Of a DNA stretch of 64,000 nucleotides, positions 10,145 to 13,320 are shown in pieces. The position numbers and the translations under genes were made by a program. The notes under the pieces were generated by a model that saw nothing but the letters and a program-made list of their open reading frames with translations, searched no databases and was not told the DNA's origin. Positions within the stretch are counted from its first letter, which is position 1. The number at the start of each line of letters is the position of its first letter. This DNA comes from an uncultured Verrucomicrobiae bacterium (GTDB taxonomy: Bacteria > Verrucomicrobiota > Verrucomicrobiia > Limisphaerales > Palsa-1400), in NCBI GenBank assembly GCA_963707025.1, contig CAVPOM010000014.1:32001-96000 (forward strand), given 5' to 3'.

Positions 10145-10599
10145 GCTTCAGCGAAAAGTTATATTCGGTTAAATCTGGTTGAGTTTACCCAAATTGGGCT
10201 GCGGAGTCGAGTGCTGACTGATCAATGGAAGGAATTCGCGAACTGGCTCCTCCGACGCCAAGCTTATGGAGGACAGGGCGAATTGCGCGAATCCTGAGTG
10301 AAGTAGTGATGCATTGGAGCGATGGCATGAGGGCATGGTGATTTAAAAAAAGTACTTTGATTTAGCGCGATTTGACTTGTTGGTTCCTGATTCTGAAAGC
10401 TCGTTTGGAGTGTAAATGGTTTATGGATAGGGACTTGAGTTGATTTTCTGCGAAAAGGCTCAAAACGCGCAGTAAAAGACGCTGTTGCTGTGCATGCATC
10501 GTAAAGTTTAGTGATTTGGCAAGGTATTGGTGGGACAGAATTGGAGTGATGGAGTGATGGAGTGATGAAGTTATGGGCATGGTCAAGGTTGAAGAAATG

Positions 10600-12557
10600 G
10601 TAGAGTAGGCGAAGTGGAAGGAGGCGGATTGAACTGACCGCAGTTGTCAGTCTCGCGCTGCCACTTCGCCCCTCATCGAACCGAACGGACGGATTTCCCA
10701 TATTCGGCTCTCCGAACTCATTCATCGGGCCGCCTTCCACTTCGCCGTGGTCGGCAGTTCATAGAGTCCATAACGCTGGTGCAACTGCTCGGGAACGTAG
10801 TGTTCCCACAGGCTGCGGCGGCAACCGTGTTTGCGCCACAGCCAGCGCCGAAAGCGGTTTTGGCTGTAGTGTTTCATCCGGTTCATCACCGAGACGCTGT
10901 TGCCGTAGTGGAAGTAGCCCGCCCATCCGCGCAAGACTTGGTTGACCTCTTTGACCACCTCCTGTATCGGACGCCCCTGCGTCCAGTGGTTGAGGATGCC
11001 GCCCAGTTTCTCGCGCAGGGCCCCCCGGCTTTTCTGGCTGGGTTGAACGTGCAGGTAGCCGCGCCCTCCAAAGGACTTGCGCCAGGTCAGGTTGAAGCCC
11101 AGGAAGTTGATCCCTTCCTTGCGAATGTTCACAATTCGGGTTTTGACTTCGTTGAGGGTCAGCCCTTTGGCTCGAAGCCATTTCTTGAGCCGCGCTATCA
11201 GCCCTCCGCCGCACCCCGCCGCGCACGCGATGACAAAGTCATCGGCGTAGCGCACCATGCGGGCTTGGCCGGAGGTTTTCTCGTTCACCCCGTGATCCAG
11301 CGGGTTGAGGTAGAGGTTGGCCAGCAGCGGCGAGATGACCCCGCCTTGCGGCGTGCCGCGCCGGTTGGGGATCACTCGCTTGGTGCCGTCCTGGTCTTCC
11401 TCCGCGACCGGGGCGCGCAGCCAGCTCTTGAGGAGCCGCAGCACGCTGCCGTCGCTGACCCGCCGGGCCACGGCCTTCATCAGTTCCCGGTGCGGAATCG
11501 TGTCGAAATATTTCGTCAGGTCCGCGTCGATGATTTCCACGTAGCCTTGCTGCACTGCTTGTTGGATTTCCGCAATGGCTTGGTGTGCCCGGCGTTTGGG
11601 CCGAAAGCCGTAGGAGCGCGGATGAAAGTCCGCCTCCAAGATCGGCATCAGCACCAGATACACCGCCGTTTGCACCACCCGGTCCTTGACCGTCGGGATG
11701 CCCAACGGCCGTTCCCCTCCGCTGCTCTTGGGAATCATCACCCGCCGCACCGGGCTGGCCCGATACGTCTTGGCTTTGAGTTCTGCTTGCAGGCGGTCGA
11801 GCCATTGCTGGCGCAGGGCCGGGTCGGCGGTGATGGACTCCATACTCTGTCCGTCCACTCCCGCGGCCCCGCCGTTGCGCTGTTGCGCTGCCAAGGCGGT
11901 TTCGAGCACGTCCTTGCGCAGCAATTCCCCATACAGGCTCCAGAACCGATACTTCGGCTCTGCTTTGGCTTTCCGATAGAGCGCGATTTGAAGCTGCCGA
12001 ACTTTCTCCGGGGTTGCTATCCGGGTCGCCCCGGCCATCCCCGCATCCTTCGCTTCGCCTCCACGCATTGAGCAAGTGTTCCCCCTTTGCGTTCGCTCGC
12101 GCAACTCCCGGCGGAAATCCGCCTGGAGCGCAAACAAGTCCACGCTACTATGAGGAACTCCGACTTCTCCGGCAGGGCCGCTCGCCTGACTGGTCTTGCC
12201 AGCTTGCGCGGGCGGTTGGGCTGGCCGCCCGCCGCCGGAGTTCTCCCAGCTTACCTTGGTTGAACTTCCAGACGTGCCGTCCACGCCGACCCCGCCGGAG
12301 CGTTGAGAAGGCTCTGACTGTTGCCCTGCCTCCTCCCTGCGGCCTTCGCCGGTCAAACAGCGGCTCGGCTTGTCTCCGGTTCTAAACTTATCGAGGCTCA
12401 TTGGATGTGGTTCATTTTCATTACGGCCCGTCTGTTCATCTCCCTCAGCTTCCAACCCCGCCTCGCGGCGGCGCTGTTGAGGTCGTGTTCCGTCGTGAAC
12501 AGCCTAATTCGACGGGCGGGACTTTCACCCGCGTTCCAACCAACTTCACTGGCGCAA
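10600..12557 (-). mobile_element. Complete group II intron, about 1.96 kb
   Basis: 5' end TTGCG at 12557; EBS1 stem-loop gccg-CTGTTTGAC-cggc; domain V GAGCCGAATATGGGAAATCCGTCCGTTCGGTTC; domain VI ending CCTACTCTAC at 10600; RT ORF inside. Confidence 0.92.
10722..12038 (-). CDS. ltrA: Group II intron reverse transcriptase/maturase, no endonuclease domain
   Basis: GAAGVDG, RPLGIPTVKDRVVQ, GTPQGGVISPLLANLYL, RYADDF, LRGWAGYF motifs; no HNH tail. Likely start MAGATRIATPEKVRQLQ at 12038. Confidence 0.95.
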   Translation of the reverse strand: MAGATRIATPEKVRQLQIALYRKAKAEPKYRFWSLYGELLRKDVLETALAAQQRNGGAAGVDGQSMESITADPALRQQWLDRLQAELKAKTYRASPVRRVMIPKSSGGERPLGIPTVKDRVVQTAVYLVLMPILEADFHPRSYGFRPKRRAHQAIAEIQQAVQQGYVEIIDADLTKYFDTIPHRELMKAVARRVSDGSVLRLLKSWLRAPVAEEDQDGTKRVIPNRRGTPQGGVISPLLANLYLNPLDHGVNEKTSGQARMVRYADDFVIACAAGCGGGLIARLKKWLRAKGLTLNEVKTRIVNIRKEGINFLGFNLTWRKSFGGRGYLHVQPSQKSRGALREKLGGILNHWTQGRPIQEVVKEVNQVLRGWAGYFHYGNSVSVMNRMKHYSQNRFRRWLWRKHGCRRSLWEHYVPEQLHQRYGLYELPTTAKWKAAR

Positions 12558-12558
12558 C

Positions 12559-12588
12559 GTTTGACTCGGTTTGACCGGGTTTGACCGG
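12559..12588. repeat. 10-bp tandem repeat (gtttgac-ycg/g) x3 forming the intron 5' exon
   Basis: gtttgactcg gtttgaccgg gtttgaccgg next to the intron boundary. Confidence 0.9.
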
Positions 12589-13320
12589 CTGGGGGGCAAA
12601 TGCAAAATGCAGAATGCAAAATGGAAGGAATCCACGAATTTCCGCGAATTTGCGCGAATGTGACGGGAAAAGTTGTTGGGTGCATGGCAGGGCCCCCCCT
12701 ATGGCCGGGAAGTGAAAACAGGTGAAACGAGGTGAAAACTTCTGGTGACGCCGCCTTCGCCCAGCTTCCACCTTTGCCGGGCTTTCCAGCTTCGCCGGGC
12801 CTATGGCCGACAAGACGGCGGGCAGGCTGACGCGGACGCCCGCGGACGCCGGGCCGACCGCTGCCAAGAGGGAGGCAGACCTGCACGGAAGGCAACGAAG
12901 CTAGAACTTCGTTGGTTTCTGTTGAATTCTTAACGGCGGGAAACCCGTTTTGGTCCCGCCTCCGTATGATTCCACTGTTGCCGTTTCCCGTCCTCACTAT
13001 GCCAAATTAGCATTTAACCCAGATGCGGTCAAGGGGGAAAGGAAAAATTATAAAGCTATAATATCAAATCGTGTCCTCGGATTCCTCCACCTCGCGATTT
13101 TGTTCCGGGCACGTATGAGGCCGGCACGAAGGAGTTGGTATTTGTATTCGTACGTCCGAAAAAGAGGTTTGGGCAAGCAATAACCTGTTGAATCGCTATT
13201 TAGCTGAGAATTCGACTCCGGAATAGTATCTTACTATTCGTGCGCTTTTCGTCAGCGGCGCCGCAGGGGGTTGTGGGTTTTGGCACTGCCCAGGCAAAGC
13301 TTCGAGTTTCAAAGACTCGT

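What the first reader, a model, noticed from the sequence alone, without database searches (positions are those of the whole stretch)
10600..12590. Group II intron whose guide loop matches the short tandem repeat it occupies
Seen: the domain I stem-loop gccg-CUGUUUGAC-cggc (plus-strand gtcaaaca at 12352-12359) is complementary to the end of the 5' exon, GUCAAACG (7 Watson-Crick pairs plus one G-U). That exon is the last unit of a 10-bp array ggtcaaaccc ggtcaaaccg agtcaaacg. Removing the intron restores ...gagtcaaacg|catttcttcaaccttgacc, which is non-coding and surrounded by other repeats. Established: EBS1-IBS1 pairing sets intron target choice, and some introns target terminators, attC sites or IS elements. 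Inference: this endonuclease-less intron homes into a dispersed intergenic repeat family, giving it many harmless targets.
Basis: partly seen in the sequence, partly recalled or inferred. Interest (0 to 1): 0.72.

Follow-up and report, generated by a model that had tools for sequence, protein, structure and literature searches.

The report
Group II intron targeting tandem repeats
A self-splicing mobile intron in a soil Verrucomicrobium has copied itself 16 times, almost always into one kind of short 10-base tandem repeat between genes, which its RNA guide loops recognise by base pairing; this is a clear natural case of a mobile element choosing an abundant non-coding landing site.

Summary
A complete group II intron with no endonuclease domain lies on the minus strand at 12558-10600 (1959 nt). 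EBS1 (GUUUGAC, 12358-12352) forms 7 Watson-Crick pairs with the exon end GUCAAAC.

- The genome holds 16 near-identical copies. Fourteen sit at GGTCAAAC^C inside (GGTCAAACCN)n arrays, one in another 10-bp array, and one in the 3' end of a gene.
- 26-39 empty targets remain, depending on how the target is defined.
- A second guide (EBS2, GUUU) pairs with AAAC of the preceding unit, so the intron reads two units 10 bp apart. Twelve of 38 such sites are occupied, against 0 of 19 sites with 9-bp spacing.
- Sister introns in related genomes carry compensatory EBS1 and EBS2 changes. These match array variants that are abundant in their own genomes.
- The arrays also occur in genomes where no intron was found.

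This is a new variant of a known strategy (RmInt1 in an IS element, IIC introns at terminators, the TeI introns). Earlier notes of this scan report analogous introns in REP, heptamer and MITE repeats on other DNA. Neither the intron class nor the function of the arrays is resolved.

The parts
10600..12558 (-). Complete group II intron, 1959 nt, 5' GUUGCG ... CUAC 3'
   Evidence: Rfam hits. Boundaries come from 16 copies and paralogous empty sites.
12280..12525 (-). Ribozyme domains I-IV core (Rfam RF02005 group-II-D1D4-6)
   Evidence: 62.2 bits, E 5e-15, full model 1-225.
12352..12358 (-). EBS1 GUUUGAC, the last 7 nt of the 9-nt loop CUGUUUGAC in hairpin GCCG...CGGC (12364-12348)
   Evidence: Covariation with exon positions -7..-1 over 14 EBS1 types.
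12384..12388 (-). Candidate EBS2 A-GUUU, in the internal loop after GAGCCUCGA
   Evidence: Pairs with exon -14..-11. Compensatory changes seen: GUUU/AAAC, CUUU/AAAG, GUGC/GCAC, GCUU/AAGC, GGCA/UGCC. Environmental variants cluster here.
12559..12565 (-). IBS1 GUCAAAC, end of the 5' exon and last repeat unit
12569..12572 (-). IBS2 AAAC in the preceding repeat unit (exon -14..-11)
   Evidence: A is found at -14 in 16 of 16 copies, at -13 and -12 in 15 of 16, and C at -11 in 13 of 16.
12559..12588 (-). Tandem array (GGTCAAACCN)x3, the homing target
   Evidence: TRF. Genome-wide family.
10599..10599 (-). First 3' exon base C (IBS3). It restores GGTCAAAC-C of the repeat unit.
   Evidence: C at +1 in 16 of 16 copies and A at +2 in 15 of 16. 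The EBS3 partner was not located.
10725..12068 (-). Intron-encoded protein, 448 aa, reverse transcriptase plus maturase (X domain), YADD present, no DNA-binding or endonuclease domain
   Evidence: Translation. Pfam RVT_1 1.9e-38 and GIIM 1e-14. PDB matches.
10600..10712 (-). Domains V and VI (AGC triad, bulged A 7 nt from the 3' end, long distal DVI insertion)
   Evidence: RF00029, 42.6 bits. Sequence read.
10542..10598 (-). 3' part of the repeat module: T-rich stretch, aaccTTGACC (inverted copy of GGTCAA), then (CATCACTC)n
   Evidence: The same layout follows 35 arrays in the genome.

Best explanation
This is an active, or very recently active, IIB-like bacterial group II intron whose protein has reverse transcriptase and maturase domains but no endonuclease. 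It spreads by retrohoming into a dispersed family of intergenic 10-bp tandem arrays, (GGTCAAACCN)n. Target choice is made by RNA-DNA base pairing. EBS1 (GUUUGAC) pairs with GTCAAAC of one repeat unit (exon -7..-1). EBS2 (GUUU) pairs with AAAC of the unit 10 bp upstream (-14..-11). The first 3' exon base is C. Because both guides read the same motif one repeat period apart, a tandem pair at 10-bp spacing is the target, and any such unit, terminal or internal, can be hit. The arrays are host features, not products of the intron. They are mostly co-oriented with the next gene, about 300 bp upstream of it, so an inserted intron is likely transcribed with that gene's leader and can splice out. Related introns in sister genomes have retuned EBS1 and EBS2 to the array variant common in their own genome. 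Shown here: anatomy, copy number, site statistics, covariation. Inferred: reverse splicing, priming without an endonuclease, transcription and splicing.
For: The genome holds 16 full-length copies with only 7 variable columns in 1959, flanked by different sequences. Fourteen of 16 lie at GGTCAAAC^C in arrays, one in a (CCAAATCAAG)n array with 6 of 7 EBS1 pairs, and one in a gene's 3' end. Of sites with AAAC at 10-bp register, 12 of 38 are occupied, against 3 of 497 other GTCAAAC-C sites (p 1e-12) and 0 of 19 sites at 9-bp register (p 0.005). Occupancy is 11 of 44 terminal and 3 of 9 internal units. EBS1-IBS1: 14 EBS1 types, mean 6.5 of 7 pairs against 3.7 when exons are swapped. EBS2-IBS2: 8 types, 3.9 of 5 against 2.5. 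The predicted target of the G373 intron (GCAC-N3-GTCGCACC) occurs 44 times in G373 and 0-2 times in four other genomes. That of the G388 intron (AAAGT-N2-ATCAAACC) occurs 22 times in G388, 15 times in G417 and 0-1 times in the three others. Arrays are found in 19 of 31 family genomes, including six with 4-30 arrays and no intron match. All 35 core modules are intergenic, and 26 of 33 have the downstream gene in the same orientation. In one metatranscriptome, contigs of relatives differ mainly in EBS1 and EBS2, and one carries a (CCAATCAAGG)n 5' exon.
Against: No experiment or read evidence shows splicing or mobility. No contig joined across the intron at this site (contigs cannot show absence). 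Nine of 16 copies carry a 1-nt deletion in a G6 run that truncates the protein to 393 aa; if real, most copies depend on the other seven. EBS2 pairing is short (4-5 bp) and imperfect: L030 has 3 of 5 pairs on the same target, and in IIE/IIF introns EBS2 was dispensable for splicing in vitro (PMC3753933, passages read). Some sister copies have 1-2 EBS1 mismatches (L036 5 of 7; L019, L020, L024 and L074 6 of 7). Gene orientation rests on my crude codon-usage gene finder. Kin genomes are not independent samples.
Confidence: 0.88

Rival explanations
1. The copies spread by duplication or recombination of larger repeat modules that already carried the intron, not by independent homing.
For: Flanks fall into families that share 30-110 nt upstream sequence, for example C7:414164, C7:204413 and C13:76247. 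The whole spacer is a mosaic of dispersed repeats.
Against: Within these flank families there are both occupied and empty members (C7:461963 and C18:613742 are empty). Flanks are only about 70-90% alike, while the introns differ at 7 of 1959 columns. There are at least five unrelated flank families, plus a site inside a gene.
Confidence: 0.05
2. Recognition works mainly through DNA shape, as in class IIC introns. The intron would seek the hairpin that GGTCAA can form with the downstream TTGACC, with only a short guide pairing.
For: A TTGACC or GGTTTGACC inverted copy lies within about 32 nt downstream of 35 arrays, 13 of them occupied. The protein's best PDB matches are IIC reverse transcriptases (GsI-IIC 3.5e-61). 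Sister L018 sits at the 3' arm of a small hairpin.
Against: The pairing is 7 bp with compensatory changes, and EBS2 covaries as well; IIC introns lack EBS2 and use a short IBS1 (PMC3753933 and PMC12584367, passages read). The insertion point would lie inside or just after the 5' arm, not downstream of the hairpin. Three internal-unit insertions and the copies at C11 and C4:331259 have no such hairpin at the usual distance. The 9-bp versus 10-bp effect concerns the upstream side.
Confidence: 0.07
3. The arrays are by-products of intron activity (repeated insertion and loss, or slippage at the target) rather than independent host repeats.
For: Within the family, close relatives of the intron (90% or more) were found only in genomes that have such arrays.
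Against: Genomes G402, G407, G408, G356, G413 and G418 have 4-30 arrays and no match to the intron probe (completeness 85-98%). The own genome has 39 empty targets. The same spacers carry many other short tandem arrays unrelated to the intron.
Confidence: 0.03

Closest known systems
RmInt1 of Sinorhizobium meliloti (class D / IIB3, no endonuclease), which homes into insertion sequence ISRm2011-2
   Same: Protein without an endonuclease. EBS1 plus EBS2 guide pairing on the 5' exon. High copy number through a multi-copy, non-essential target. (The abstracts of PMC4615759 and PMC5894124 were seen in a search listing; the target details are recalled.)
   Different: The target here is a short host tandem repeat, not another mobile element. 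The two guides read the same motif in two successive repeat units. Class D membership was not tested.
Class IIC introns (B.h.I1, O.i.I1, GsI-IIC), which insert after intrinsic terminators or attC hairpins
   Same: A specialised intergenic niche, no endonuclease, and the closest solved reverse transcriptases by sequence.
   Different: IIC introns use a DNA hairpin plus a short IBS1 and have no EBS2 (PMC12584367 introduction and PMC3753933 passages). Here the EBS1 is 7 bp, EBS2 covaries, and there is no upstream hairpin.
Thermosynechococcus elongatus TeI3/TeI4 family (Mohr, Ghanem and Lambowitz 2010, PMC2882425; abstract and passages read)
   Same: Proliferation of one intron to many near-identical copies. 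Divergence of EBS sequences into families with new targets. Preference for non-essential multi-copy DNA.
   Different: TeI introns are CL/IIB1 with endonuclease-type proteins, and they insert into other introns, IS elements and scattered intergenic sites. No tandem-repeat target is described there.
IS elements that insert into REP/BIME repeats (ISPpu9, ISPpu10, IS1397; PMC1525189, table read)
   Same: A mobile element that uses a dispersed intergenic host repeat as its landing site. That table also lists the P. putida KT2440 group II intron as REP-associated in 2 of 9 copies.
   Different: Those are DNA transposons that recognise palindromic repeats through protein. Here an RNA guide pairs with a direct tandem repeat.
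Bacterial IIE/IIF introns (Nagy et al. 2013, PMC3753933; passages read)
   Same: Compact IIB-like ribozyme with EBS1 and EBS2 in domain I, 3' AY, and a protein without an endonuclease.
   Different: Membership was not tested, because no class-labelled reference sequences were available. The 5' end of this subfamily is GUUGCG, with an extra U.

Membership tests
Group II intron (bacterial, ORF-containing) | Domain V with AGC triad and 2-nt bulge; domain VI with a bulged branch A near the 3' end | tested here: met
   RF00029 scores 42.6 bits, above the gathering score of 40. The bulged A lies 7 nt from the 3' end, by reading.
Group II intron (bacterial, ORF-containing) | Domain I-IV ribozyme core | tested here: met
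   RF02005 scores 62.2 bits over the full model 1-225.
Group II intron (bacterial, ORF-containing) | 5' GUGYG and 3' AY boundaries | tested here: met
   The 3' end is AC. The 5' end is GUUGCG, a one-U variant, and more distant sisters have GUGCG.
Group II intron (bacterial, ORF-containing) | Reverse transcriptase plus maturase ORF in domain IV | tested here: met
   Pfam RVT_1 and GIIM. PDB group II reverse transcriptases at 3.5e-61.
Group II intron (bacterial, ORF-containing) | EBS1-IBS1 pairing that defines the 5' splice site | tested here: met
   7 of 7 Watson-Crick pairs here. Covariation over 14 EBS1 types.
Group II intron (bacterial, ORF-containing) | Self-splicing and retromobility | not testable with these tools
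   The only evidence is indirect: 16 near-identical copies at precise, independent sites.
Class IIC | No EBS2, short IBS1 (3-5 nt), insertion just downstream of a terminator or attC hairpin | tested here: not met
   EBS1 is 7 bp, EBS2 covaries, and the 5' exon is a direct repeat, not a hairpin.
IIB-like introns lacking an endonuclease (classes D, E, F and relatives) | EBS1 and EBS2 both present in domain I; protein lacks the D/En domains | tested here: met
IIB-like introns lacking an endonuclease (classes D, E, F and relatives) | Placement of the protein within a named class by phylogeny with class-labelled references | not tested
   No labelled reference set was at hand. The class is left open.

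The most novel reading that the evidence does not exclude
A lineage of group II introns in soil Verrucomicrobia has specialised on phased short tandem repeats. Its two guide segments are copies of one another (GUUU and GUUUGAC) and read two successive repeat units, so the periodicity of the repeat is itself the recognised feature. The guides co-evolve with each genome's own array variant (GTCAAAC, GTCGCAC, ATCAAAC and others). Because the arrays sit in the leaders of unrelated genes, many of them housekeeping genes, and in the same orientation, the intron may both borrow and perturb their expression.
Probability: 0.45. Interest if true: 0.7.

Novelty: new variant of a known kind. Interest (0 to 1): 0.55.

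Why it matters
Group II introns are known to avoid harm by landing behind terminators, in attC sites or in other mobile elements. This case adds a different niche, short host tandem repeats, and gives an unusually clean natural data set: 14 occupied and 39 empty targets in one genome, a 10-bp versus 9-bp spacing contrast, and retuned guides in sister genomes. The data make two questions directly testable. One is whether EBS2, which is dispensable for splicing in related introns in vitro, is the element that sets homing specificity. The other is how intron guides track fast-evolving repeat families. The case also flags the unexplained phased 10-bp arrays that fill the intergenic spacers of these bacteria.

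Tried and rejected
- **Replication-strand bias.** I compared the GC skew around occupied and empty arrays. The result swings with window size (Fisher p 1.0, 0.15, 0.008 and 0.19 for half-windows of 10, 25, 50 and 100 kb), and the genome has no clean skew pattern. No conclusion.
- **Public runs.** Contigs of X1-X3 (DNA) and X15 (RNA) were laid on 10200-13000. No contig joins 12559 to 10599, so no empty allele or spliced RNA was seen. Contigs cannot show absence.
- **Promoter and terminator scan of the spacer.** One sigma-70-like site was found against 0.9 expected, and it lies on the opposite strand. Terminator-like sites numbered 10 against 5.1 expected, and none lies at the array. This says nothing about the array's function.
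- **Preference for the last repeat unit.** Rejected. Occupancy is 11 of 44 terminal and 3 of 9 internal units.
- **Shared function or paralogy of downstream genes.** Rejected. All-against-all blastp of the 26 downstream proteins found no pair of related genes; its only two hits were the same gene counted twice below two neighbouring arrays. The 16 proteins scanned gave unrelated families.
- **Intron class.** This could not be settled. PDB similarity favours IIC reverse transcriptases, but the RNA features exclude IIC.
- **EBS3.** The partner of the +1 C was not located.
- **Literature.** Six full-text searches found no paper describing a bacterial group II intron that homes into short tandem repeats. 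This covers only the held library.
Full report
**What is there.** Reading the minus strand of 10300-12900 and scanning with Rfam shows a complete group II intron. Domains I-IV match RF02005 at 12525-12280 (62.2 bits). Domains V/VI match RF00029 at 10712-10600 (42.6 bits). Between them lies a 448-aa ORF (12068-10725) with Pfam RVT_1 and GIIM domains and nothing else. The protein is therefore a reverse transcriptase/maturase without an endonuclease domain. Its best solved relatives are group II reverse transcriptases: GsI-IIC 3.5e-61, an E. rectale IIC protein 1.3e-56, TeI4h 2e-47 and LtrA 3.5e-31. The neighbouring genes on the same strand are a GH16 hydrolase and Lon protease upstream, and a LolA-like protein and a TPR protein downstream.

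**Boundaries.** The window is contig C14 of an 18-contig, 6.96-Mb genome. By the titles of its closest relatives' records, it is an uncultured Verrucomicrobiae bacterium. The genome holds 16 full-length copies of the intron, which differ at only 7 of 1959 alignment columns.
- Aligning the flanks and comparing with paralogous empty sites shows that the inserted segment is GTTGCG...CTAC, placed between GGTCAAAC and C.
- In three copies the repeat continues in the 3' exon, and removing the intron restores a perfect 10-bp period.
- The intron is therefore 12558-10600. EBS1 (GUUUGAC, 12358-12352) makes 7 Watson-Crick pairs with GUCAAAC (12565-12559).

**Target statistics in this genome.**
- GTCAAAC occurs 1443 times against about 594 expected from composition, and GGTCAAACC 249 times against 54.
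- There are 48 arrays of at least two GGTCAAACC-like units at 9-11 bp spacing.
- Fourteen of the 16 intron copies are in such arrays. One is in a different 10-bp array, (CCAAATCAAG)n, where EBS1 still makes 6 of 7 pairs. One follows a solitary GTCAAAC ten codons before the stop of a small ORF.
- The position table of the 16 sites shows conservation at -7..-1 and also at -18..-10, with A at -14 in 16 of 16 copies, A at -13 and -12 in 15 of 16, and C at -11 in 13 of 16. C is found at +1 in 16 of 16 and A at +2 in 15 of 16.
- Among GTCAAAC-C sites, 12 of 38 with AAAC exactly 10 bp upstream are occupied. The figures are 3 of 497 without it (Fisher p 1e-12) and 0 of 19 where the preceding unit is 9 bp away (p 0.005).
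- With a slightly looser target, AAA[CG]-N3-[GA]TCAAAC-C, there are 53 sites and 14 are occupied: 11 of 44 terminal units and 3 of 9 internal units. The 'last unit' is therefore not special.

**A second guide.** The internal loop after GAGCCUCGA reads UAAGUUUAG (12390-12382). Its GUUU can pair with AAAC at -14..-11.

**Covariation in sister introns.** Sisters came from three sources: public genomes (16 loci), 38 of 401 genomes of the same order, and follow-up searches.
- EBS1. Twenty-five intron/site rows give 17 distinct EBS1/IBS1 combinations and 14 EBS1 sequences. The mean is 6.5 of 7 pairs, against 3.7 when exons are swapped between introns with different EBS1, and 3.5, 2.0 and 1.6 when the exon register is slid by 1-3 nt. 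Examples are GUUUGAU with ATCAAAC, GUGUGAC with GTCGCAC, ACCCGAA with TTCGGGT, GCCGUAA with TTACGGC, CCACGGA with TCCGTGG and CCGCAGA with TCTGCGG.
- Misses. L036 has 5 of 7 pairs. L019, L020, L024, L040, L068, L074 and L022 have 6 of 7.
- EBS2. Eighteen rows and 8 EBS2 types give 3.9 of 5 pairs, against 2.5 swapped and 1.3-2.4 slid. Clear compensatory pairs are GUUU/AAAC (own intron, L027), CUUU/AAAG (L020, L021, L026), GUGC/GCAC (G373), GCUU/AAGC (L036) and GGCA/UGCC (L040). L030, L022, L029, L055 and L070 reach only 3 of 5.
- I rate EBS1 as established and EBS2 as probable.

**Retuning to each genome's own repeats.**
- All four copies in G373 sit in arrays. Three are at GTCGCAC and one at GTCAAAC.
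- The predicted empty target of the G373 intron, GCAC-N3-GTCGCACC, occurs 44 times in G373, and 0, 2, 0 and 1 times in G000, G268, G388 and G417. Reversed-pattern controls give 0-2.
- The predicted target of the G388 intron, AAAGT-N2-ATCAAACC, occurs 22 times in G388, 15 times in G417 and 0-1 times elsewhere, with controls at 0.
- In a wetland metatranscriptome (run X15), contigs of relatives differ from this intron mostly inside EBS1 (12352-12358) and EBS2 (12384-12387). One contig runs from the intron's 5' end into (CCAATCAAGG)2-CCAATTAAGG. An RNA library may contain DNA, so this is only a hint that array plus intron is transcribed.

**The arrays belong to the host.** GTCAAACC-(N)-RGTCAAAC occurs in 19 of 31 genomes of the family, with reversed-pattern controls of 0-1. 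The intron probe matches 11 of 31. G402, G407, G408, G356, G413 and G418 have 4-30 arrays and no intron match. The 12 genomes without arrays have no intron match either.

In this genome, 35 'core' modules share one layout: array, then C-A, a T-rich stretch, then (AACC)TTGACC or GGTTTGACC, often followed by ATGCCC and (CATCACTC)n.
- All 35 are intergenic by my crude codon-usage gene finder.
- The downstream gene has the same orientation in 26 of 33 modules (binomial p 0.0013), at a median of 300 bp. The upstream gene has the same orientation in 20 of 35.
- The downstream genes are unrelated to one another: ribosomal protein L21, AIR synthase, ThiF, PrmC, an FtsJ/S4 methyltransferase, PPDK, Dus, MgsA and several glycosidases.
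- The whole 1.4-kb spacer around the intron is a mosaic of dispersed short repeats, giving 154 BLAST segments genome-wide.
- What the arrays do is unknown. Their orientation bias suggests a leader or promoter-proximal element, so 'harmless' is an assumption.

**Mechanism.** Shown: an intact ribozyme and ORF, precise multi-site insertion, and guide-target covariation. Inferred from established group II biology (PMC12584367 introduction; PMC3753933 discussion): the excised lariat, bound to its protein, reverse-splices into the strand carrying GGTCAAACC. With no endonuclease, cDNA synthesis must be primed by host DNA ends, probably at replication forks. My GC-skew test of strand bias was inconclusive.

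**Rivals.** Three alternatives are argued against in the rivals section: spread by segmental duplication, IIC-like hairpin recognition through the downstream TTGACC, and arrays created by the intron.

**Comparison and novelty.** The strategy of homing into abundant non-essential DNA is known for RmInt1 in ISRm2011-2, IIC introns at terminators and attC sites, and the T. elongatus TeI family (PMC2882425). IS elements are known to target REP repeats (PMC1525189).
- Six full-text searches found no description of a bacterial group II intron aimed at short tandem repeats.
- Earlier AI notes of this scan report similar cases on other genomes, in REP hairpins, a heptamer tandem repeat and MITE ends. 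I have not checked those notes. The habit seems widespread even if it is unpublished.
- I class this as a new variant of a known kind. The particular points of interest are the two-unit, period-dependent reading and the genome-specific retuning.
- IIC membership fails on RNA features. The class among IIB-like introns lacking an endonuclease is open.

**Caveats.** This is a metagenome-assembled genome (88% complete). The 1-nt deletion in a G6 run that truncates the ORF in 9 of 16 copies may be an assembly error; a short-read contig of run X1 agrees with the intact form. Related genomes are not independent. No wet-lab evidence exists.

Noticed in passing
Own genome, intron reference position 1533 (window about 11026, G6 run in the ORF): Nine of 16 intron copies have a 1-nt deletion in a G6 homopolymer, which truncates the protein to 393 aa. 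The window copy and six others are intact at 448 aa. The pattern does not follow the other SNPs, so it may be a long-read assembly error.
   Followed up: partly
Window 10600-10680 (-); loci L019-L027 versus L023: The distal part of domain VI is replaced by unrelated sequence in sisters that are otherwise about 87% identical. BLAST alignments stop at intron position 1892 of 1959. L023 keeps the window's version. This looks like a swappable DVI insertion.
   Followed up: partly
L039:1500-1900 and L065 (genome G295): An internally deleted derivative of the intron is present. The deletion runs from the EBS2 region of domain I into the end of the ORF, so EBS1 and most of the ORF are missing. The 5' exon is ...ccggtcaaggtcagtcaagg, again a 10-bp array.
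   Followed up: no
Window 12598-12850 and 10542-10576: The spacer is built of several other short tandem arrays: (TGCATTT)3.7, (AATTCGCGNA)3, (GTTTTCACCT)3, an 18-mer x2.7, (GGCGTCCGCG)2 and (CATCACTC)4.4. Nearly every piece recurs elsewhere in the genome. Many have a 10-bp period. Their function and origin are unknown.
   Followed up: partly
G000 contig C11:46160-48118 (+), locus L006: One intron copy lies ten codons before the stop of a small ORF (...KPFVK|PPPNAEEPN*) that has no Pfam match. It is the only copy inside coding sequence, so that gene needs splicing to keep its native C-terminus.
   Followed up: partly
G000 contig C15:111169-111571 (-), locus L017: A stretch is 66% identical to the reverse transcriptase part of the intron. 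This is probably a second, distant group II intron or a retroelement remnant.
   Followed up: no
Window 12553-12558 (-): The 5' end of this subfamily is GUUGCG, one U longer than the GUGCG of the more distant sisters (L029, L040, L045-L057).
   Followed up: no
L055 (genome G074), about 80 nt upstream of its intron: A more distant sister intron sits at the end of a 9-bp array, (TCCGTGCAA)n. The array is preceded by an inverted array of the same motif, which resembles the inverted repeat pairs noted elsewhere in these genomes.
   Followed up: no
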